From: a virus
Taxonomy: Duplodnaviria; Heunggongvirae; Uroviricota; Caudoviricetes
DNA: 20,500 bases
Direction: 5' to 3' (one strand)
Virus record (IMG/VR): IMGVR_UViG_3300015185_000049
The notes under the pieces are model-generated. The model was not told the origin of the DNA. It made no database searches and saw nothing but the letters and a program-made list of their open reading frames with translations. The stretch's first letter is position 1. Every line of letters begins with the position of its first letter. This document shows positions 7,533 to 16,503 of the stretch, piece after piece. The position numbers were made by a program, and so were the translations under genes.

Positions 7533-7722
7533 AGCCTCACCTCCGCAGATAACGGATGGTGTACACGGTTTGGTTCGAAGAAGGAAAGAAGTTACATTAG
7601 CGTAAGGCCCGAACATCTATTCAAAAAGAAAAACGCCAGCAATTATTCTGGCGTAGCTAAAAATATCGTATAATCTTACACTTCAAAAAATAACTTTATA
7701 AAATGCCATCACATCATATCTT

Positions 7723-8445
7723 CTAAGAAAATCTTGATAAATATTGGTGCGGAGGCACACCAAAATATCCTCTAAAAACACTTACAAAATATGATGCATT
7801 GTCATACCCGCATATTCCCGCCACCTTGCCGACAGTATGGTTACTGTAGATCAATAATCTTTGCGCCATCATCATTCGTTCTTCAAGAATTAATTTACTA
7901 AACGATAATCCTTCGTCTTTTAATTTTCTTTTTAACAAACTCTCGCTCATATATAATCTTGAAGATATATCACAAAGTCTCCATGACGCAGAGATATCCG
8001 AGTGAATAATAGCCTTAACTTTACAACCTAAGCTATTAAGACTTCCGAACAAAAAACTTTGCACTATTTTCTCTGAAGATAAGACAGCAAGACATGCAAG
8101 TGATATTTGATTTCTAACTACATCCACGGTTTTGCTATCACAATTCAAGCATGCAACCAAGTTCTTTAACAATGAAAAATCTTCACATTCTACTATCAAG
8201 TATGACGGATAAAACCTTCTTACAGAAAAAGGTGAGAGTGTGTAGTTTTTAAAGAAATCATTAACTGTTTTCTCCTCAACATCTACGATCATTAGATGAT
8301 CTGTATTTGACGAAAAAAGATCTTTTAAATTGTATTCAATGAGGACAGCATTTCCTTTTTTAAACAAAATATCTTCTTTACCAATTCGGACACCAAACGA
8401 GTTCAACACCAAAATGATAGAACATATGTATGGCATATTATCCAC
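7723..8445 (-). CDS. AraC-family transcriptional regulator (cargo gene)
   Basis: 240 aa with a C-terminal AraC-type double HTH (GKVAGICGYDNASYFVSVFRGYFGVPPHQY). The gene is visibly AT-rich and is flanked by long AT-rich non-coding DNA inside the late operon. Confidence 0.8.
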   Translation of the reverse strand: MDNMPYICSIILVLNSFGVRIGKEDILFKKGNAVLIEYNLKDLFSSNTDHLMIVDVEEKTVNDFFKNYTLSPFSVRRFYPSYLIVECEDFSLLKNLVACLNCDSKTVDVVRNQISLACLAVLSSEKIVQSFLFGSLNSLGCKVKAIIHSDISASWRLCDISSRLYMSESLLKRKLKDEGLSFSKLILEERMMMAQRLLIYSNHTVGKVAGICGYDNASYFVSVFRGYFGVPPHQYLSRFS

Positions 8446-8842
8446 CTGATATCATTGGGGTTACACCAGGTAAGTATAGGTGGAAAATCAATATTCGCCA
8501 GTTCAACAATAAGGAAAATCTCATTGCATCACAACTATAAAACCATGTGTTTAACTCACAAAAAACAAATCATTAAACTAATCTGTTATATTATAATAGC
8601 TGCGTGCAATAATAATATTATATGCTCTTAATATTCACTTGAAATATCTTCATATAAAAACAGATTGAATAAAATCTTTTGGGGCTGGTATGTTTACCAA
8701 CATTAAATTGCATCTCAATGTTTTCTTTAGCGTGAACAGGATTTTTATAAAAACTGACACTATGAGCATCATAGCGTAGTTTTTACGATTGTAAATATCC
8801 TGCATACAGGAACTCATCACTTTCAGATGATATCGCATACAG

Positions 8843-9802
8843 TTAATTCACCATCAGTCTTAGAGCCAGTTCTTCCGGATAGGGATCGAAGTAATTCTGT
8901 GTAAGCAAGTAATCATTAGGATACTCACCCAGATAATGCTTCAGCAGAGTCAACGGCGCAAGAAGAGGCAATGTGCCAAAGCGATAGTTAAGTATAACCT
9001 CGCTCAACTCTTTACGCTGGCGTGTGCTTAAGTAATTACTAAAATACCCCTGTATATGCATCAGCACATTCGTGTGATTTTTACGTGATGCTGGTTTTCT
9101 GAGAATCGCCATCAGATTATCACGATACACCTCAAAGTATGATTCAAGGTCCGCCCACTCGTGTATTGCAGCCACAAATGGTCCCATATCTTTATAGCCT
9201 GCCTGGCTATGCGCCAACAACTGAAGCTTATAACGACTATGAAAAGCTAATAACTCTCTTCTTGATAATTTCTCCTTGTAAAGGTGATTGAGCTCATCCA
9301 AAGCAAAAACTCTTTCAATAAAATTCTCACGAAGCACTGGATCATGTAATCGCCCATCCTCTTCAACCGGTAGCCAGGAAAACTTTTCCATCAAAGTGCT
9401 CGTAAATAGTCCCACTCCATCTTTACGACCTCGATTACCATTTTCATCATAGACACGCACGCGCTCCATGCCACAGCTGGGAGATTTAGCACAAACCACA
9501 AACCCCGATACATCCTTTAATTTGTCCATATAAGAACGACTAAACTCTGTCATTCTCTCTGTCACATCCTCATTCTGGTCGTGGCTGAAACACATCCGTA
9601 TATTTCCTTGCTTCGAGCGCACAAGTCGTAGAGCAGGACGCGGAACTGGCAGCCCTATAGCCATTTCCGGACATACTGGTCTGAATGTTACCCATTCCAC
9701 TAATTTGTCCATTAAAAAGTCATCTCTTTTGTGACCACCATCAAAACGAACAGCAGAACCGCCCAAACAACCGCTGATCCCAATCACAGGTTTTTTTATC
9801 AT
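8843..9802 (-). CDS. YbgA-like protein (DUF523 / TudS-type predicted Fe-S domain fused to DUF1722)
   Basis: 319 aa. The N-terminus GISGCLGG...RPVCPEM...VVCAKSPSCGME carries the conserved cysteine pattern of the DUF523/TudS family, and the C-terminal half is DUF1722-like. Overall architecture matches E. coli YbgA (recalled). Confidence 0.7.
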   Translation of the reverse strand: MIKKPVIGISGCLGGSAVRFDGGHKRDDFLMDKLVEWVTFRPVCPEMAIGLPVPRPALRLVRSKQGNIRMCFSHDQNEDVTERMTEFSRSYMDKLKDVSGFVVCAKSPSCGMERVRVYDENGNRGRKDGVGLFTSTLMEKFSWLPVEEDGRLHDPVLRENFIERVFALDELNHLYKEKLSRRELLAFHSRYKLQLLAHSQAGYKDMGPFVAAIHEWADLESYFEVYRDNLMAILRKPASRKNHTNVLMHIQGYFSNYLSTRQRKELSEVILNYRFGTLPLLAPLTLLKHYLGEYPNDYLLTQNYFDPYPEELALRLMVN

Positions 9803-9994
9803 TTCCTCCCCCTTGACTAATTCATTAACACATAAACTGTGTAGTGCACGGAATAAATTGCCTTTCTGACGTCATCACTGACAATTTTTCTGTTATGGAC
9901 TATTCCTAATATAGTATGAAAGTTCTTTAAGTGATCGGTCGTAATCATCTATCTTTCATACTTACTCTCAACTATCAAAAGTACAGGATTGATT

Positions 9995-10519
9995 ATGAAG
10001 TTATGGCCTGTGTTGACTGGCATTGCACTCTCTTTCACTCTTATAGCATGTAAGGCCCCGACACCACCTAAAGGTGTGCAGCCGATTACAAATTTTGACG
10101 CCAACCGCTACCTCGGAAAATGGTATGAAATAGCTCGCCTCGAGAACCGGTTCGAACGTGGTCTGGAACAGGTCAGCGCTACTTATGGAAAACGGAACGA
10201 CGGAGGGATTCGTGTACTTAACCGTGGATACGATCCAACGAAAAATAAATGGAGCGAGAGCGAAGGTAAAGCATACTTTACTGGAGATACTAAAACTGCA
10301 GCGTTGAAGGTTTCGTTTTTTGGCCCCTTCTATGGTGGCTATAATGTAATCAAACTGGATGATGAGTATAAGTATGCTCTTGTTAGTGGTTCGAACAGAG
10401 AATACCTATGGATTCTGGCAAGGACCCCAACTATTCCAGATAAAGTAAAAGCAGACTATGTGCGAACCGCTCAAAAGTTGGGATTCAATGTCAATGAATT
10501 ATTATGGGTTAAACAATAA
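9995..10519 (+). CDS. blc: Bacterial lipocalin (Blc-like outer-membrane lipoprotein)
   Basis: Lipoprotein signal with lipobox LIAC, then the lipocalin signature FDANRYLGKWYEIARLENRFERG and downstream SFFGPFYGGYNV...YLWILARTP, closely resembling E. coli Blc. The ORF track starts at a TTG at 9989; ATG at 9995 is the likelier start. Confidence 0.85.
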   Translation: MKLWPVLTGIALSFTLIACKAPTPPKGVQPITNFDANRYLGKWYEIARLENRFERGLEQVSATYGKRNDGGIRVLNRGYDPTKNKWSESEGKAYFTGDTKTAALKVSFFGPFYGGYNVIKLDDEYKYALVSGSNREYLWILARTPTIPDKVKADYVRTAQKLGFNVNELLWVKQ

Positions 10520-10546
10520 AATCCCTACCCGAAATGATACTTATTA

Positions 10547-10575
10547 GAAAAAAACCAGCCTTTGGGGAGGCTGGC
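10547..10575 (-). terminator. Rho-independent terminator, candidate tR' downstream of Q
   Basis: Inverted repeat CCAGCCT / AGGCTGG (about 10555-10574) with a 6-nt loop, followed on the minus strand by a run of 7-8 T (the plus-strand A-run at about 10547-10554). Confidence 0.55.
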
Positions 10576-10624
10576 TAAATCAGGAAACAAGCTGTTATAT
10601 GATAATAACTACGTTGCGATTCCA

Positions 10625-10665
10625 ACATTTAAAATGTTAGACTAATGACAATCAGACAGCAACTT
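10625..10665 (-). promoter_or_regulatory. Candidate late promoter PR' with qut region
   Basis: On the minus strand, TTGCTG (-35, plus 10657-10662), a 17-nt spacer and TAACAT (-10, plus 10634-10639), lying between the Q stop and the terminator at 10547-10575. This is the layout expected for a Q-dependent late promoter with a short leader transcript. Confidence 0.35.
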
Positions 10666-10674
10666 TTCCTTTAA

Positions 10675-11052
10675 TTATTTCGAACAATCAGCATCCATCT
10701 CCAATCGGAGATCCAATACCATCAGCATGCCCTCCACTACGCCCTCAGCTTTCTGGAGCATCCTGCCAACCCAACAATCAGATCGCCCATGCTTACGTGC
10801 AAGCGCCATAAAAGTCATGCCGCCGACATAATAGTCCACCAATAAACCATGTAAATCGCTGTTGTTTTTTCTCAGGCGAGCCATACATTCACAAATGATC
10901 ATCGCGTCATCGTCACAGCATTGCGGACGAGATCTTACTTTTGAAGGAATTAATCCCTTAAAACCAGCGGCAATGGACGACCAGGTCACATCTTCATGAT
11001 TATTAGCCGCCCATGCCCCCCAACGCTCAAGAACCATCTGAATATCACGCAT
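10675..11052 (-). CDS. Antitermination protein Q (phage 82 / QuuD-type)
   Basis: [76 protein letters not shown]... closely matches my recollection of the QuuD/QuuQ family, including the Cys-rich segment. The gene is immediately upstream of the promoter/terminator module. Confidence 0.85.
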
Positions 11053-11069
11053 CAACTTACTCCACATAA

Positions 11070-12158
11070 TTAGGCCAGCACACCAATTGCCAGCGCGCGA
11101 TCGATAAATCGAAAAATCAGCTCCAGTTGGGAGCCATACTTCTCTTCAAATGCCACGGTATCCGTATGCAACTCGTCGTGATGCTTTCTGCACAAAGGCA
11201 ACACAAAGAGATCATGTGCTTTGGTTCCCATTCCGCCCTGCCCGTGACCAATCAGATGATGCGGATCGTCGGCTGGCATCCCGCAGCAAGCACACGGCTG
11301 TGTCTTAACCCAGCGTGTGTATTTCTCCTTAACCCAACGGTGACGTTTAGGCAGCTTCATGAAAGATTCCGGAGACTCTGGATCAACGGTGATGCTTACC
11401 ACCGTCTTTTCCTGTGGTGGTTTTTGTTGCTGGTGGGCGTAAGGCAACGGTGCAAGATTTTTTGTGCGTTGTTTCAATATGCTGGTGGCGGCCTGCTCTC
11501 CCGGTACGATGTCGCTCTCGCGGTACACCGAGCAGATTTTTTCCGCTGGTAATCCCAGCGAACGACGTAATACCGCTTCCGGTAGCGCGTCCGCCACCTG
11601 ATTGCGGAGCGCCCACCAGGATAATTCAGCCAGAGATAATTCACGCTCCTGCGTACCGCTTATTGCGTGACCGATGACGTCAATCATCCATGCTGACAGG
11701 TTTTGATGAGCAAGTTGCTCGAGTGATTCGGATGTCTGGTCACGCAGTTGGTTGTCGCAGTGCCAGCACAACACCATTGCGCCGGTACCATAACGGTGAA
11801 TGACGGTTTCGCTGTGATGATAATCGCCGTGCGGCCACTGGCAGGATTTAATATGGCGCAACAGCCAGTCAGACAATGCACCAGCACCACCAGCAGCACG
11901 AATCACCCGTGCGTTACTGAAAAACGGCAGCAATGTTTTGTCTTCCACCAGCGGCTGGCGAACGGCAGGAACGACCCCGGACGGCAGATTACGCATGCTT
12001 TTCGGTTCCGGCTCCACCAGTACCCGGGTATTGTGGAATACCGGCATGGATTCACGGCCTAGTTTAAGGACCACCAGCCCAAGCTCTGGCACCAGAACAG
12101 GTCTAAGTAATACCCGCACGTTACCTCCAGATCCGTTGCTGGAAAGTGCGGGACGCAC
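11070..12158 (-). CDS. DUF968 (YdfU-like) protein with C-terminal HNH-like Cys/His motif
   Basis: 362-aa ORF directly upstream of Q, the position of ydfU in Qin. The C-terminus has CACCG...[32 protein letters not shown], reminiscent of a His-Me finger / HNH zinc motif. The start is uncertain; an internal Met near 12047 would remove the overlap with the upstream ORF. Confidence 0.7.
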
Positions 12159-12399
12159 GTGGTGGGCGTTCGGAATAAGGCAGCCTGACAGAGATTATCC
12201 AGTGCCGATAGTCGAGACTGAGAGCTTTCTTAACCTCGAACCCGCGCCTGCGGTAAGAATGAATCAGCCATTCGGCCTGTTCTTCAGTGCATGGGGGATG
12301 CTGGTACCAATCAGATTTAAATGCGTGAGAGCGCCGCCCGTGCCTGCTGGCAAAGACGGCAGAATCATCAGAATTGTGTAATTTGGTATCGTGCGCCAT
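12121..12399 (-). CDS. Hypothetical protein (rem-position ORF)
   Basis: 92-aa ORF between the cassette terminator and the DUF968 gene. Its identity as the Qin rem homolog is not verified. Confidence 0.35.
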   Translation of the reverse strand: MAHDTKLHNSDDSAVFASRHGRRSHAFKSDWYQHPPCTEEQAEWLIHSYRRRGFEVKKALSLDYRHWIISVRLPYSERPPRASRTFQQRIWR

Positions 12400-12469
12400 C
12401 GGTTGTCTCTGCTGGCGCAGCAGGTGCCAGTTGTTCAGGCTGGCCTGTGGATTGTAAACCAGAATACGT

Positions 12470-12494
12470 AAAACAAAAACCCGCCGAGGCGGGT
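12470..12494 (-). terminator. Rho-independent terminator at the 3' end of the two-gene cassette
   Basis: Hairpin ACCCGCC-GAG-GCGGGT (plus 12479-12494) followed on the minus strand by TTTTTGTTTT (plus A-run 12470-12478), 12 nt after the stop of the 381-aa gene. Confidence 0.6.
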
Positions 12495-12505
12495 ATGAAT
12501 GAGAA

Positions 12506-13651
12506 TTATTTTTGTTTTATGGTAAATGAAATAACATTGTCAGAATGAATCATATCTGATTCTTTAAATCGTGTAATTGCAGATAACTCATTTAAGGGAA
12601 GAGCAAAGATATCAGTTAACTCAGTTACCTTTATGATTGAATGCTTATCAAGAAGTAAAAGTAACTTATTAAGTAACTCAGGCTCTTCTTTTGGGATTGC
12701 ATCATCTAACGGCTCCCTACGATGGAATGGCGCTAATTGCTTAAATATATAGCTTTTCTGATTATCGCTGATTAACTTAAGGCTATGACTCCTCATGGCA
12801 ATACTACCGATAGATGTAATCCAACGTAGTTTTAATCGTTCTAACGCTGATAAATTTGGACTATAAAATTCACGCCCGAAAGTGGTGGCTGGCATTAAAA
12901 AGCTGGAGGCAAAATAATCGGCCTGCAACTCCACCAGGTCGAATAATTCTTTATCATTCAGGTAGTCATCCTCCACTGCCCTATGCATAATTAAATGGCC
13001 AAGTTCATGAGCAAGACTAAATCGCATGCGAACAGCCGTCTTCGAGCTATCTAACATAATTAAAGGCCGCCCATTATGCCAGAACGAAAAGGCATCAACT
13101 TTCTCACCAGAAGGTAAATGAGAAACCACGATTCCTTTATTTTCAACAAGTCTAGTTAAATTGAGTATTGGACCATCACCTAACCCCCAAAAACGCCTTA
13201 ATTGGGTGGACATATCCTCAATATCAGATAGAGACAGAACCTCAAAATCAATAATATCGAATTCAGGCAGAACCACATCTGGTAATTGAGCATATTTTAG
13301 ACATTCATCCAATATTAATGCCGCCCAACGCCCACGTGTTTTCCCTGTAACTCGAGCCTTTTTGGTCGCAGTTGAACGACTTCTAAAATGAATCGCCCCC
13401 TCCAGAGATGGAGAAGCACTGGAGGCTAAGAAAAATCGTTCTGGAAATCCTAACACCTTGGCTATTGCAGAAAGTGTATCAGCAGAGGGAGACTTCAACC
13501 CCTTCTCAAATGACGAAATAGCTTGTCTTGAAATATTGAGCACTCTGGCAAGTTCAGCCATCGTCAACCCTTTTGCCTCTCTTGCCTCCTCAAGGCGACG
13601 AGGATTAAACGATTTATCAGTAAATGGTGTTTGTGCGATATTCATGCTCAT
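12506..13651 (-). CDS. Fusion protein: N-terminal XRE-type HTH plus ImmA/IrrE-family zinc metallopeptidase (HEXXH), with a roughly 130-aa C-terminal extension
   Basis: 381 aa. The N-terminus LTMAELARVLNISRQAISSFEKG is a classic XRE HTH; the central SLAHELGHLIMH is an HExxH zinc-peptidase motif in an ImmA/IrrE (COG2856)-like context. Start overlaps the upstream gene's stop by 4 bp (ATGA). AT-rich. Confidence 0.8.
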   Translation of the reverse strand: MSMNIAQTPFTDKSFNPRRLEEAREAKGLTMAELARVLNISRQAISSFEKGLKSPSADTLSAIAKVLGFPERFFLASSASPSLEGAIHFRSRSTATKKARVTGKTRGRWAALILDECLKYAQLPDVVLPEFDIIDFEVLSLSDIEDMSTQLRRFWGLGDGPILNLTRLVENKGIVVSHLPSGEKVDAFSFWHNGRPLIMLDSSKTAVRMRFSLAHELGHLIMHRAVEDDYLNDKELFDLVELQADYFASSFLMPATTFGREFYSPNLSALERLKLRWITSIGSIAMRSHSLKLISDNQKSYIFKQLAPFHRREPLDDAIPKEEPELLNKLLLLLDKHSIIKVTELTDIFALPLNELSAITRFKESDMIHSDNVISFTIKQK

Positions 13652-14262
13652 GATTGCTGTGATTTAATTATTTGTTCGGTAAGAATCTTGATTTTATCTT
13701 CAATCTCAGAATCCACATTTTCTGCTTCAACTTCTACCATCGTCATAATTGGTAAAGACTCAGTATAAAGAATCCCGTAATTATCCGAAGAAGGAACAGT
13801 TAAATTCAGTTTGGACAAGTGCTGATTACTGCCATCATGTAACATATAAACATGTCCACCAGACGCTCTCCCATCCAGGGAGTCGGCATTTTCATCCCCA
13901 AAATTCAATTCATAATTTTGATTAGCGTAAACAGCTCTATACAATGCCTGCTTAGGAAGTGGCGCATTACCCGATAAATGATGTGCCGTCATTTTCCAGT
14001 TGTTCGAGTGAATCGCAATGTGTTTACAATTTTTAGCAGCATTGCTACCGACTTCAAAATCCAGCCCCACACGCTTAGCCGCATTCTCAAGCAATGCATC
14101 GGCATAAAACCAGCGCAAATATGACTGTGCTTGAGCCCAAAAAGAACCAAACTCTTTTGCCTTCATATGCGAATGAAGATAAGCCTGTGCTAACGCGATC
14201 GAAAGCTCTTTGCGGCACTCCTTGTCATATGCTTCTAACAACTGTTGAGATAAATTCTGCAT
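13648..14262 (-). CDS. Protein of unknown function, first gene of the cassette (candidate toxin or effector partner)
   Basis: 204-aa ORF with an SD-like AAGGA upstream and translational coupling to the HTH-peptidase gene. No motif recognised; acidic C-terminal tail. Confidence 0.65.
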   Translation of the reverse strand: MQNLSQQLLEAYDKECRKELSIALAQAYLHSHMKAKEFGSFWAQAQSYLRWFYADALLENAAKRVGLDFEVGSNAAKNCKHIAIHSNNWKMTAHHLSGNAPLPKQALYRAVYANQNYELNFGDENADSLDGRASGGHVYMLHDGSNQHLSKLNLTVPSSDNYGILYTESLPIMTMVEVEAENVDSEIEDKIKILTEQIIKSQQS

Positions 14263-14279
14263 GACCGTAATATCCTTGT

Positions 14280-14335
14280 TGTTTTGGTGTCAACCATATT
14301 TCCATTTAACATCGACTTTGTCAACCAGATAGATG
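14280..14335 (-). promoter_or_regulatory. Candidate cassette promoter with direct-repeat operator-like sites
   Basis: On the minus strand there are two GGTTGACA elements (plus-strand TGTCAACCA at about 14287-14295 and 14318-14326, 31 bp apart), the first being a perfect -35 hexamer, upstream of AAGGA and the ATG at 14262. Confidence 0.3.
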
Positions 14336-14338
14336 CTA

Positions 14339-14360
14339 GAAAAACCCGCCGAAGCGGGTT
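14339..14360 (-). terminator. Rho-independent terminator (3' end of hok mRNA)
   Basis: Hairpin CCCGCC-GAA-GCGGGT (plus about 14345-14359) followed on the minus strand by TTTTT, about 70 nt downstream of the hok stop. Near-identical to the hairpin at 12479-12494. Confidence 0.6.
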
Positions 14361-14885: not shown

Positions 14886-15207
14886 GACAACCTCCTGAAT
14901 TGGAAGTACACCAGTCCTGATAAATATGAGGCTGTCTCGTCAGTGATTCAATACAACTATTGGGTATAGTTTCTCAGATTTTTTTCTGTGGAAATTGGAC
15001 ACAACACCCGCTCACCACCAGCACTTCTTTAAACACACCTAGTCAGGATCCCGCCTGACCTTTTATAACACGTAACTGTTAACTGACAGGCAATAGCCTG
15101 TCGGATATTACAATGTCAGCTCTTGGTGCGAAGCTGTCGCACTAATTCTGTGAGCGAAGAACGGACATTTTCATTGTTGATACAGGATACATTGAAGTAG
15201 TCAACCA

Positions 15208-15456
15208 ATGGCTTTTCGCATAGTCTATATTCCAGCTGCAACAGTTACTAATGATATTGCTATATTTGCGGATCATCTTGAATCTTTTTTGTCTGAAAAC
15301 TGGGTAGAATGGGGTAAGGCCTGCAACGAAATTGAAGCACTTACAGGAATCAATCTCTCAAAAAATCAACTAGCTTACCGAACAGCAACTATCAATGCTA
15401 AAGGCAACGTACCAGAAATGCTCGAGACTATTCTTGCTAAATCTGCTGGGCGATAA
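15208..15456 (+). CDS. Hypothetical protein, plus-strand orphan in the nin-type region
   Basis: 82-aa ORF with an ATG start, on the opposite strand to all neighbouring phage genes and preceded by about 500 bp of non-coding DNA. No motif recognised. Confidence 0.45.
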   Translation: MAFRIVYIPAATVTNDIAIFADHLESFLSENWVEWGKACNEIEALTGINLSKNQLAYRTATINAKGNVPEMLETILAKSAGR

Positions 15457-15575
15457 GCACGAGTGAAGATACTGTTCCAAAAGCCTTCTATTCAATAAAT
15501 TACGAAGTGCTAACTAATCGACTATGTACAGAGCAAATCACCTTGAATTGCTCTTGATTGAATGGTGAAGAATTA

Positions 15576-15602
15576 TGAGGGTGATAGTCCTTCCCACCCT
15601 CA
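15576..15602. terminator. Candidate bidirectional terminator between convergent genes
   Basis: Inverted repeat TGAGGGTG ... CACCCTCA with an 11-nt loop, flanked by A/T-rich sequence, between the stop of the 15208..15456 ORF and the stop of the KTSC gene. Confidence 0.35.
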
Positions 15603-15609
15603 ATTAAAA

Positions 15610-15837
15610 TTAAAGGTATTTACGTGAGAAATTTTTCTTAACCACACTACTAATAAAACTATTTAGCCCATGCCCAGCCTGGGCTAACTCTTTCATCCTA
15701 GAGACCGTTGAAGCCCCTGGTTTTGTAGAATCGTAAACGTATTTCCATCCATCTTTAAACTGTACTGTGATAGCATCTGGAGTAATCTCATAAAACACTA
15801 TACCCGAATTACCGCCTTTATTAGCATAAGCTGGCAT
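15610..15837 (-). CDS. KTSC-domain-like small phage protein
   Basis: 75 aa. ITVQFKDGWKYVYDSTKPGASTVSRMKELAQAGHGLNSFISSVVKKNF resembles the KTSC domain family (recalled pattern). Assignment is tentative. Confidence 0.5.
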   Translation of the reverse strand: MPAYANKGGNSGIVFYEITPDAITVQFKDGWKYVYDSTKPGASTVSRMKELAQAGHGLNSFISSVVKKNFSRKYL

Positions 15838-16077
15838 TTTTTATCCTTATTAAATTATAGCAGAAAGTTGCTACACTCTAGTCATATGACCCATGCTAAA
15901 CCTAATTGTTGAGCTAAGTCATAATTTCGATCATTTGATGAATGTAAGTTATTTGACAGGCAGAATTAACCATACACTGTAATGTCCGTTTTTGGTACAA
16001 AGATGCCAATCACAGTAGTTCTAGTCTTATGCAACCGAAGTGTCAATTAACATCTGAACTAATGCTCTTTAATCTCG

Positions 16078-16503
16078 TCATTTCAATAAATACCAAACAT
16101 TTCCCTGATAAAATGCCAGTATGCGCTGCATAACTTCGCTCTTCCGGCACTCGCGACAGATTATGTTTAGACGACTGTCGTAGCGACGTATTTCTCCGTC
16201 AGGTAATGACCAGATAAGGTCCGGATCAACCACAGATGTTTTTTTCTTCAGCTTTGCCCTTGAGAGTTTTTTGCGGGCATTTTGCCAGTCCTTACGAGCC
16301 TGTTCAGACGGGAATAATCCGTAACCAGAGTTGTATACATCGCCGCTGGCAACCAGCTCTCTGGCGAGAGTGCTTATGTAATACCTTGATGCACCGGTTT
16401 TAGCCTCCAGAGCCCGTAACGTCTCGCGACCACTCAGACGTACAAGTTCAACAACCTGCCCCTTAATTTTTTCTCGCTCTTCTTGTGTAAAAACTTTTGC
16501 CAC
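16078..16503 (-). CDS. Hypothetical phage protein with HTH-like segment, downstream of the replication initiator
   Basis: 141-aa ORF starting 40 bp after the initiator stop, with an HTH-like TLRALEAKTGASRYYISTLARELVASG and a C-terminal Cys-containing segment. Confidence 0.5.
   Translation of the reverse strand: MAKVFTQEEREKIKGQVVELVRLSGRETLRALEAKTGASRYYISTLARELVASGDVYNSGYGLFPSEQARKDWQNARKKLSRAKLKKKTSVVDPDLIWSLPDGEIRRYDSRLNIICRECRKSEVMQRILAFYQGNVWYLLK

What the first reader, a model, noticed from the sequence alone, without database searches (positions are those of the whole stretch)
12506..14262. AT-rich two-gene cassette: unknown 204-aa protein coupled to an HTH-XRE/ImmA-IrrE zinc-peptidase fusion; candidate toxin-antitoxin or abortive-infection defence module
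Seen in sequence: two minus-strand genes overlap by ATGA (13648-13651), so they are translationally coupled. The second encodes an XRE HTH (LTMAELARVLNISRQAISSFEKG) fused to an HExxH metallopeptidase (SLAHELGHLIMH); the first (204 aa) has no recognisable motif. The cassette is more AT-rich than the flanking phage genes and has its own promoter-like region and terminator. Established knowledge: HTH plus COG2856/ImmA-IrrE peptidase proteins paired with a variable partner are a recurring architecture in predicted TA and anti-phage modules (RosmerTA-like systems, ImmR/ImmA-type switches), and the nin region of lambdoid phages is a known hotspot for such cargo. Inference: this cassette sits where K-12 Qin carries relBE next to hokD, so one TA module appears to have been swapped for another. 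The 204-aa partner matches no toxin family I know and may be a new effector.
Basis: partly seen in the sequence, partly recalled or inferred. Interest (0 to 1): 0.85.

Follow-up and report, generated by a model that had tools for sequence, protein, structure and literature searches.

The report
RosmerTA toxin-antitoxin cassette in a prophage
This is a two-gene toxin-antitoxin and likely anti-phage cassette of the already described RosmerTA family, carried as cargo by a Qin-like E. coli prophage; it is an ordinary member, although how its type of toxin works has not been studied.

Summary
Two minus-strand genes, of 204 aa and 381 aa, overlap by ATGA inside a 1.9-kb block with 40% GC, against 53-54% in the flanks.

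The 381-aa protein is a full-length RmrA (PADLOC E=5.5e-102). It has an XRE HTH and an M78 zinc peptidase with an intact HELGH...E site, and its model matches ImmR, CapP and IrrE.

The 204-aa protein is not a new effector. It is a divergent member of the commonest RmrT toxin family. All 66 aligned relatives hit PADLOC RmrT models, and 38 of 80 RmrA loci across many phyla carry this family directly upstream.

So the locus is a RosmerTA module (Millman 2022). It is 100% identical in phage Tritos of E. coli LF82, where published RNA-seq shows both genes expressed in the lysogen. It occurs in 41 of 5426 complete E. coli genomes.

It replaces rem of K-12 Qin, not relBE.

New details:
- Two invariant TGGTTGACA direct repeats lie in the promoter and are probably the RmrA operator.
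- The toxin is soluble, with a weak resemblance to the restriction-endonuclease fold but no catalytic triad.
- It is unrelated in sequence to the one RmrT verified for defence.

Toxicity and defence were not tested for this toxin type.

The parts
12417..14339 (-). Whole inserted cassette (moron): promoter/operator, rmrT, rmrA and terminator. It replaces the 428-bp rem segment of K-12 Qin.
   Evidence: blastn against K-12 Qin: homology ends at 12416 and resumes at 14340. GC is 0.404 against 0.53-0.54 in the flanks.
13648..14262 (-). rmrT: 204-aa predicted toxin. Soluble and acidic, it belongs to the commonest RmrT family (here called T1).
   Evidence: ORF. PADLOC RmrT PDLC03933 E=7.5e-10 and PDLC03934 E=6e-8. 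66/66 relatives hit RmrT. phrog_35814 full length. AF2 pLDDT 87.5. No TM segment, pI 5.7.
12506..13651 (-). rmrA: 381-aa predicted antitoxin/autorepressor. XRE HTH (aa 18-73), M78 zinc peptidase (aa 170-287) and a helical C-terminal region.
13648..13651 (-). ATGA stop/start overlap (translational coupling of rmrT and rmrA)
   Evidence: The same 4-nt overlap is in L004 and L006; the junction is also tight in L007, L008 and L090.
13433..13600 (-). Coding region of the XRE helix-turn-helix domain of RmrA (aa 18-73)
12995..13009 (-). HELGH zinc-binding/catalytic motif of RmrA (aa 215-219). The third ligand, Glu241, lies in VELQAD.
   Evidence: H215, E216 and H219 are invariant and E241 is >=90% conserved in 79 homologues. 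The motif aligns to HELGH...EAQAD of CapP 7t5t.
14319..14327 (-). Direct repeat 1, TGGTTGACA. It contains the -35 hexamer TTGACA (14324-14319) and is a putative RmrA operator half-site.
   Evidence: Invariant in four cassettes with unrelated flanks. The 9-mer occurs only twice in the 20.5-kb window, both here.
14288..14296 (-). Direct repeat 2, TGGTTGACA, 31 bp downstream of repeat 1 and overlapping the end of the -10 and the expected transcription start. Putative RmrA operator half-site.
   Evidence: In the distant cassette L007 both copies are changed together (TTACTTGAC / TTACTTTAC).
14296..14301 (-). Putative -10 hexamer AAATAT, preceded by TGG (extended -10), 17 nt after TTGACA
   Evidence: Read from the sequence. 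The position is conserved as AAAATT/AAACAT/AAAATC in L004/L006/L090. It was not called by the generic scan.
14273..14277 (-). Shine-Dalgarno-like AAGGA, 10 nt before the rmrT ATG
   Evidence: Read from the sequence
12469..12494 (-). Intrinsic terminator after rmrA (ACCCGCCTCGGCGGGT + TTTTGTTTTA)
   Evidence: Terminator scan. In LF82 RNA-seq the next gene, TRITO_42, is at background while rmrA is 14-fold above it.

Best explanation
The cassette is a RosmerTA-family toxin-antitoxin module carried as a moron by a Qin/Tritos-like lambdoid prophage.

Shown here:
- rmrT (204 aa) and rmrA (381 aa) form one tightly coupled, toxin-first operon with its own conserved promoter region and terminator.
- RmrA is a full-length member of the RmrA family, with an XRE HTH and an intact M78 zinc-peptidase site.
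- RmrT belongs to the commonest RmrT family.
- The 100%-identical operon is transcribed in LF82 lysogens.

Inferred mechanism:
1. RmrA binds the two TGGTTGACA direct repeats, which cover the -35 and the transcription start, through its HTH. This autoregulates the operon.
2. RmrA neutralises RmrT after translation. This most likely needs its peptidase domain and the host ClpX(P) machinery, as reported for other Rosmer systems.
3. When RmrA or ClpXP function is lost or overwhelmed, for example by an infecting phage, free RmrT stops growth and aborts the infection.
4. RmrT is soluble, has no membrane segment, and has a weak restriction-endonuclease-like fold that lacks the catalytic D...(D/E)xK residues. 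I therefore expect it to act in the cytoplasm on DNA or the replication machinery, by binding rather than by classical nuclease chemistry. The precedent is the Rosmer toxin RipA, which targets DnaN. I do not expect membrane depolarisation.
For: Family assignment: PADLOC RmrA 5.5e-102 full length and RmrT 7.5e-10. All 66 relatives of the toxin hit RmrT models, best 1.8e-53.

RmrA domains and fold: Pfam HTH_3 and Peptidase_M78. H215/E216/H219 are invariant. The model matches ImmR, CapP and IrrE.

Conserved pairing: a toxin-first, abutting gene pair in 78/80 RmrA loci, 38 of them with this toxin family. The same pair is in four other phage contexts.

Co-divergence of T and A identities: (72,80), (65,70), (55.5,66), (38,47), (27,42).

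Operator/promoter: invariant TGGTTGACA x2.

Expression in lysogens and termination after rmrA: PMC9928086 Table 1 and S1 Table.

Literature on the family:
- RosmerTA defends E. coli, and a delta-rmrA mutant could not be transformed (10.1101/2022.05.11.491447).
- Vmi480/Vmi470, with the same architecture, is a validated TA pair (PMC4671572).
- rmrA is essential and clpX co-essential in three Pectobacteriaceae strains.
- clpP essentiality in E. coli E101 depends on a prophage toxin of this kind of pair.
- RipA/RipB is a Rosmer TA whose toxin targets DnaN and depends on ClpX.

Against: - No experiment exists for this toxin family as far as I could establish. The only RmrT verified for defence (E. 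coli OLC-716) is not detectably homologous: BLASTP E=2.3, hhalign 0.2% and 4.3%.
- I could not test homology to RipA, Vmi480 or the E101 toxin, because their sequences were not retrievable.
- The single-sequence PADLOC hit of the window toxin is modest and partial (36.8 bits, residues 47-161).
- The role of the peptidase, the operator function of the repeats, the trigger and the target are all inferences.
- hokD, just upstream, is transcribed about 125-fold more strongly in LF82. About 1% read-through could therefore account for part of the operon's RNA.
Confidence: 0.8

Rival explanations
1. The pair is a toxin-antitoxin module whose main role is not anti-phage defence. It could instead stabilise the prophage (addiction), or act as a stress or physiology switch in the way pneumococcal RipAB drives competence. 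Expression changes in the host niche, not phage infection, would then be the relevant trigger.
For: RipAB, a Rosmer TA, has a documented non-defence phenotype. In LF82 the operon's RNA rises from log2 about 8 in LB to about 12.5 inside macrophages, and the rmrT:rmrA RNA ratio rises from about 2 to about 6. Only 41 of 5426 complete E. coli genomes carry the cassette, always as prophage cargo next to hokD in the top matches listed.
Against: Two other RosmerTA systems protect E. coli against phages. The family is enriched in phage genomes and defence contexts. The two roles are not mutually exclusive.
Confidence: 0.25
2. The 381-aa protein is an ImmA/ImmR-like or IrrE/DdrO-like regulatory switch for the prophage. 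A protease would cleave a repressor to control induction or a damage response, and the 204-aa protein would be an accessory sensor rather than a toxin.
For: The HTH domain resembles ImmR, DdrO and CapH, and the protease resembles CapP and IrrE. All of these work by repressor cleavage.
Against: - The HTH and protease are fused in one chain.
- The whole protein matches RmrA models end to end.
- The cassette lies about 4-5 kb from the prophage immunity region and is absent from otherwise similar prophages such as K-12 Qin.
- It moves as a unit between unrelated phage backbones.
- Antitoxin genes of this architecture are essential only when the upstream gene is present.
Confidence: 0.05
3. RmrT of this family is an active nuclease with an unusual active site built on the restriction-endonuclease fold. 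It would kill by cutting DNA or RNA.
Confidence: 0.3

Closest known systems
RosmerTA (RmrT/RmrA) of E. coli OLC-716, the system verified for phage defence by Millman et al. 2022
   Same: Two-gene, toxin-first operon. The antitoxin has an XRE HTH plus an M78 zinc peptidase of about 380 aa, and the toxin is about 200-240 aa of unknown function. It is found in E. coli. The window RmrA matches the same set of RmrA models.
   Different: The toxins are not detectably homologous: BLASTP E=2.3, and profile-profile probability 0.2% and 4.3%. They hit different PADLOC RmrT models, PDLC03935/03932 for OLC-716 against PDLC03933/34/37/40 for the window toxin.
RipA/RipB (Spr1630/Spr1629) of Streptococcus pneumoniae
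   Same: A Rosmer-type pair. The antitoxin is an XRE plus ImmA-like protein, essential only when the toxin is present, and the system depends on ClpX. The window RmrA matches the spr1629 family model with 187 bits over residues 15-364.
   Different: The score is below the family's 335-bit cut-off, so RmrA is a homologue, not an equivalog. I could not test the relation of RipA to the window toxin. RipA's target (DnaN) and its phenotype (competence) are known, whereas nothing is known for this toxin.
Vmi480/Vmi470 of Vibrio mimicus MGIVmi1, and the related E. coli E101 prophage pair (WP_001179380.1/WP_000481765.1)
   Same: A 198-aa toxin is encoded first, with a tight junction to a 362-aa HTH plus zinc-peptidase antitoxin. 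It is carried on a mobile element. Toxicity and neutralisation were validated, and the E101 pair makes clpP essential.
RmrT(D5)/RmrA(D25) of Gordonia phage Kita
   Same: A phage-borne RosmerTA with an ImmA-type antitoxin, validated for defence.
   Different: The Kita toxin has predicted transmembrane regions and depolarises the membrane. The window toxin has no hydrophobic segment (maximum 19-residue Kyte-Doolittle hydropathy 0.70) and is predicted to be a soluble alpha/beta protein.
ImmR/ImmA (ICEBs1), DdrO/IrrE (Deinococcus) and CapH/CapP (CBASS)
   Same: The same two folds are present, an XRE HTH and an M78 protease with HExxH...E.
   Different: In those systems the two domains are separate proteins and the protease cleaves the repressor to switch on genes. 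Here they are fused and paired with a toxin.

Membership tests
RosmerTA (DefenseFinder/PADLOC definition) | RmrA: one protein with an N-terminal XRE HTH and an M78 (ImmA/IrrE) zinc peptidase, matching an RmrA profile | tested here: met
   PDLC03947 E=5.5e-102, residues 11-380 of 381, and 13 further RmrA models. Pfam HTH_3 and Peptidase_M78 are above their cut-offs. The model matches ImmR, CapP and IrrE.
RosmerTA (DefenseFinder/PADLOC definition) | An adjacent, co-oriented gene matching an RmrT profile | tested here: met
   PDLC03933 E=7.5e-10 (residues 47-161), PDLC03934 E=6e-8, and two weaker models. All 66 aligned relatives hit PDLC03933, best 1.8e-53. I did not run the PADLOC or DefenseFinder programs themselves, so their coverage rules were not applied.
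RosmerTA (DefenseFinder/PADLOC definition) | Intact metallopeptidase site (HExxH plus a downstream Glu) | tested here: met
   HELGH at aa 215-219. H215, E216 and H219 are invariant and E241 is >=90% conserved in 79 homologues. The site aligns with that of CapP.
RosmerTA (functional definition) | RmrT is toxic and RmrA neutralises it | not testable with these tools
   Only indirect evidence: conserved tight pairing in 78/80 loci, co-divergence, and the literature on other Rosmer pairs.
RosmerTA (functional definition) | Protection against phage infection | not testable with these tools
   Shown for the OLC-716 and Kita systems only. Both have unrelated toxins.
Toxin family of the verified OLC-716 RmrT | Sequence homology to the verified toxin | tested here: not met
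   BLASTP E=2.3. hhalign probability 0.2% and 4.3% with enlarged profiles.
PD-(D/E)xK restriction-endonuclease-like nucleases (for RmrT) | alpha-beta-beta-beta-alpha-beta core fold | tested here: inconclusive
PD-(D/E)xK restriction-endonuclease-like nucleases (for RmrT) | Conserved catalytic Asp ... (Asp/Glu)-x-Lys | tested here: not met
   Residues conserved family-wide are Y28, N74, A76, N78, H81, T92, A106, R109, N116, F121, H142, P157 and E181. There is no acidic/Lys triad.
Membrane-depolarising RmrT (Kita D5 type) | Predicted transmembrane segment | tested here: not met
   Maximum 19-residue Kyte-Doolittle hydropathy 0.70, GRAVY -0.47.
spr1629 family repressor/antitoxin (NCBIfam NF052239, equivalog) | Score at or above the curated cut-off of 335 bits | tested here: not met
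   187.2 bits. RmrA is a homologue, not an equivalog.
ImmR/ImmA-type two-protein switch | A separate repressor substrate and protease that control the mobile element's own induction | tested here: not met
   The domains are fused in one ORF. The cassette is absent from K-12 Qin and lies outside the cI/cro region.

The most novel reading that the evidence does not exclude
The commonest RmrT family (T1), to which this toxin belongs, would be a new kind of cytoplasmic effector. It would use a degenerate restriction-endonuclease fold with a conserved Asn/Asn/His/Thr/Arg/His surface, and poison DNA replication or another nucleic-acid process by binding rather than cutting. It would be held in check jointly by the RmrA zinc peptidase and ClpX(P). 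That makes it a protease-plus-unfoldase antitoxin mechanism, different from classical type II sequestration. The TGGTTGACA repeats would be the RmrA operator.
Probability: 0.3. Interest if true: 0.55.

Novelty: new member of a known kind. Interest (0 to 1): 0.27.

Why it matters
As a locus it matters little. Standard defence-annotation profiles already recognise both genes, and the family was named in 2022.

Its modest value lies in four points:
- It corrects the annotation of 'hypothetical protein' plus 'ImmA/IrrE metallo-endopeptidase' in phage Tritos/LF82 and about 40 other complete E. coli genomes. The LF82 prophage paper listed both genes as expressed morons but did not recognise them as a TA pair.
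- It shows that the best-sampled RmrT family is unrelated in sequence to the only toxin verified for defence, and has no studied mechanism.
- It offers a tractable E. coli example, with native expression data, a candidate operator and a clean insertion point, for asking how a zinc-peptidase antitoxin and ClpXP together control a toxin.
- The rise of the operon's RNA inside macrophages in an adherent-invasive E. coli strain may deserve a look.

Tried and rejected
1. Pfam and NCBIfam on the toxin gave no hit.
2. A profile of the toxin family against PDB sequences gave nothing.
3. Foldseek against PDB gave nothing significant. The afdb50 library was unavailable.
4. The search for related loci on genome contigs with the toxin alignments failed. 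A2 had no conserved stretch, and A3 gave 20 pattern matches, none confirmed. I used RmrA as the anchor instead.
5. tblastn of the toxin found no plasmid record and only Tritos among 50,697 phage records.
6. I tried to connect the toxin to the experimentally studied Rosmer toxins:
   - Full-text search for WP_000062344 or WP_001180546 found no paper.
   - Cluster look-ups of distant homologues gave almost no names.
   - A profile of Firmicutes members found no Streptococcus protein.
   Homology to RipA, Vmi480 and E101_02645 therefore stays untested.
7. The idea that the verified OLC-716 toxin is a remote relative was rejected at the sequence level. One upstream ORF (L057) hits both profiles, which I left unexplained.
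8. The 'relBE swapped out' reading was rejected from the K-12 comparison.
9. I looked for a beta-clamp-binding motif by eye. The conserved N-terminal QQLLxA(F/Y) does not fit the QL[SD]LF or QLxLxL consensus (my own knowledge), so I make no claim.
10. The supplement of the LF82 CRISPRi preprint holds no data on these genes.
Full report
**1. The observation**

The two minus-strand ORFs are exactly as described: 13648..14262 (204 aa) and 12506..13651 (381 aa), sharing ATGA at 13648-13651. The quoted HTH and HExxH peptides are in the translation, and HELGH is aa 215-219.

The block is AT-rich. GC is 0.404 for 12417-14339, against 0.539 and 0.529 for the flanks. A hairpin plus T-run terminator follows the second gene at 12494-12469.

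The generic promoter scan found nothing on the right strand upstream of 14262. The sequence nevertheless has a perfect TTGACA, a 17-nt spacer ending in TGG, and AAATAT. Section 5 shows that this element is conserved.

**2. What the proteins are**

*The 381-aa protein.* It has Pfam HTH_3 (aa 20-73, E=2.4e-16) and Peptidase_M78 (aa 170-287, E=9.7e-19). Against PADLOC it matches RmrA end to end (PDLC03947, E=5.5e-102, residues 11-380), plus 13 more RmrA models. NCBIfam's spr1629 repressor/antitoxin model scores 187 bits, below its 335-bit cut-off.

In an alignment of 79 homologues, H215, E216 and H219 are invariant and E241 is nearly so. These residues align with the HELGH...EAQAD site of CapP.

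*The 204-aa protein.* It has no Pfam or NCBIfam hit. It does hit four PADLOC RmrT models (best PDLC03933, E=7.5e-10, residues 47-161) and phrog_35814 over its full length.

An exhaustive profile search found 78 representative clusters, nearly all of 200-220 aa. All 66 that I aligned hit RmrT PDLC03933, best E=1.8e-53. The protein is therefore a divergent member of a known RmrT family, not a new effector.

**3. Is the pairing real?**

Close and distant homologues of the toxin are each followed by an RmrA gene:
- L004, next to a DUF927 primase
- L006, a lambdoid phage, between Ead/Ea22 and RusA/Q
- L007
- L008, near cII
- L090, a second E. coli allele next to a TerB gene

The junctions are a 4-nt overlap, a 1-nt overlap, a 14-nt overlap or a 10-nt gap.

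I then anchored on RmrA and fetched 80 loci from species-representative genomes of many phyla. In 78 of them a same-strand ORF abuts the RmrA start.
- 38 belong to the window's toxin family, which I call T1.
- 24 belong to the family of the verified OLC-716 toxin, T2.
- 17 belong to other groups (the L057 ORF hits both the T1 and T2 profiles and is counted in both).

T1 and T2 are not detectably related: BLASTP E=2.3, and hhalign probability 0.2% and 4.3%.

Toxin and antitoxin diverge together, the toxin faster. Identities to the window pair are (72,80), (65,70), (55.5,66), (38,47) and (27,42).

**4. Where it sits**

The cassette is 100% identical in Escherichia phage Tritos (OV696610.1, TRITO_40/41), which is a prophage of E. 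coli LF82. At least 80% of the query is present in 41 of 5426 complete E. coli genomes. RefSeq calls the two proteins 'hypothetical protein' (WP_001180546.1) and 'ImmA/IrrE family metallo-endopeptidase' or 'helix-turn-helix domain-containing protein' (WP_000062344.1).

K-12 Qin has the order relB-relE-hokD-rem-ydfU-ydfT on this strand. blastn shows that window homology to K-12 stops at 12416 and resumes at 14340. So 1923 bp replace the 428 bp that hold rem, downstream of hokD.

The cassette starts immediately after the hokD terminator. That terminator (ACCCGCTTCGGCGGGTTTTT) is nearly identical to the cassette's own (ACCCGCCTCGGCGGGTTTTT).

**5. Control region**

I aligned the 100 nt upstream of rmrT from the window, L004, L006 and L090. 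Their flanks are unrelated and their proteins are 56-73% identical. The alignment shows two invariant copies of (T)GGTTGACA, 31 bp apart.
- The first copy carries the -35.
- The second copy overlaps the end of the -10 and the expected transcription start.
- The 9-mer occurs nowhere else in the window.
- In the more distant L007, both copies read TTACTTGAC / TTACTTTAC, so they changed together.

I infer that these are the operator half-sites of the RmrA HTH. Binding was not tested.

**6. Expression**

Published RNA-seq of LF82 lists LF82_281 (rmrT) at 30-fold and LF82_280 (rmrA) at 14-fold above the Tritos background in LB. The paper classes both as morons but does not recognise them as a TA pair (PMC9928086).

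Its S1 Table gives these log2 values:

| Gene | LB | Inside macrophages |
|---|---|---|
| rmrT | 8.75 / 7.6 | 12.2-12.8 |
| rmrA | 7.6 / 6.5 | 9.6-11.0 |
| TRITO_42 (downstream) | 2.3 | 3.0-4.8 |
| hokD (upstream) | 14.8-15.6 | 16.4-16.6 |

The terminator therefore works. A contribution from hokD read-through of around 1% cannot be excluded in this context.

**7. The toxin itself**

The AlphaFold model is confident (pLDDT 87.5, pTM 0.78). It has a long N-terminal helix, three strands, a helix, three strands and a C-terminal helix.

The residues conserved across the family are Y28, N74, A76, N78, H81, T92, A106, R109, N116, F121, H142, P157 and E181. They include no acidic/Lys catalytic triad.

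The protein is acidic and has no hydrophobic segment. This sets it apart from the membrane-depolarising toxin of Gordonia phage Kita.

**8. What the literature adds**

- RosmerTA was defined as a zinc-peptidase antitoxin with a toxin of unknown function. The OLC-716 system defends E. coli, and a delta-rmrA mutant could not be obtained (10.1101/2022.05.11.491447).
- The ImmA-type antitoxin node pairs with many toxins (PMC10440598).
- Vmi480/Vmi470 is a validated TA pair with a 198-aa toxin encoded first (PMC4671572).
- A prophage pair in E. coli E101 makes clpP essential (10.1101/2020.05.25.114553).
- rmrA and clpX are essential together in three Pectobacteriaceae strains.
- RipA/RipB of S. pneumoniae is a Rosmer TA whose toxin interacts with DnaN and is restrained by both RipB and ClpX (10.1101/2025.09.02.673660).
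- I could not obtain the sequences of RipA, Vmi480 or the E101 toxin, so their relation to T1 is unknown.

**9. Verdict**

This is a bona fide RosmerTA cassette by every sequence criterion I could test. It is an autonomous moron of a Qin/Tritos-like prophage and is expressed in the lysogen.

The most likely mechanism has three parts, all inferred. RmrA autorepresses the operon through the TGGTTGACA repeats. RmrA, with ClpX(P), neutralises the toxin after translation. Released toxin acts in the cytoplasm on DNA or replication.

The finding is a new member of a known kind. What is open is the biochemistry of the T1 toxin and the role of the peptidase.

Noticed in passing
window 14340-14359 and 12475-12494 (- strand): The terminator hairpin after hokD (ACCCGCTTCGGCGGGTTTTT) and the one after rmrA (ACCCGCCTCGGCGGGTTTTT) differ by one base and bracket the inserted cassette exactly. 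They may be the homology used to swap morons at this site.
   Followed up: partly
window 7561-11070: This stretch has no counterpart in Tritos, strain GABEEC10 or K-12 Qin. It encodes an AraC-family regulator (7723-8445), a 2-thiouracil desulfurase/DUF1722 protein (8843-9802), a lipocalin on the other strand (9989-10519) and a different Q antiterminator (PF06530, 10675-11067). Much of it is very AT-rich, with GC down to 0.30. It looks like a second cargo island downstream of Q.
   Followed up: partly
window about 14930-16100: The segment upstream of hokD differs between the window, Tritos and GABEEC10 and is not relBE. Its two small ORFs, 15208-15456 (+) and 15610-15837 (-), have no Pfam match.
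   Followed up: partly
window 12506-14262 (LF82_280/281 in PMC9928086 S1 Table): In LF82 the operon's RNA is about 16-30 times higher inside macrophages than in overnight LB. The rmrT:rmrA RNA ratio rises from about 2 to about 6. The authors did not comment on this.
   Followed up: partly
window 12121-12399 (- strand): A 92-aa ORF lies between the cassette and ydfU and overlaps the listed GTG ORF start of ydfU. It is 92% conserved at the DNA level in K-12, where it is not annotated. RefSeq elsewhere calls it a hypothetical protein (WP_015912508.1). It has no Pfam hit and is at RNA background in LF82.
   Followed up: partly
L057:2153-2965 (+): The 270-aa ORF upstream of this RmrA hits both the T1 profile (E=8.9e-10) and the profile of the verified OLC-716 toxin family (E=2.2e-17). 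The two families otherwise show no profile-profile similarity. It could be a hybrid or a bridging sequence.
   Followed up: no
L090:2396-4152: A second E. coli allele of the same system (toxin 56% and antitoxin 66% identical) sits in a different prophage context, after an N6/N4 DNA methyltransferase gene and before a TerB-domain gene. It keeps the same promoter repeats.
   Followed up: partly
RmrA aa 84-96 (window about 13364-13402, - strand): Between the HTH and the peptidase lies a conserved motif, consensus A-x-x-F-R-S-x-x-x-A-T-K-K-x-R, with invariant R90. It is modelled as a beta-strand (aa 84-89) at lower confidence than its surroundings. It could be an internal substrate-like or autoinhibitory segment. 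I could not inspect coordinates.
   Followed up: no
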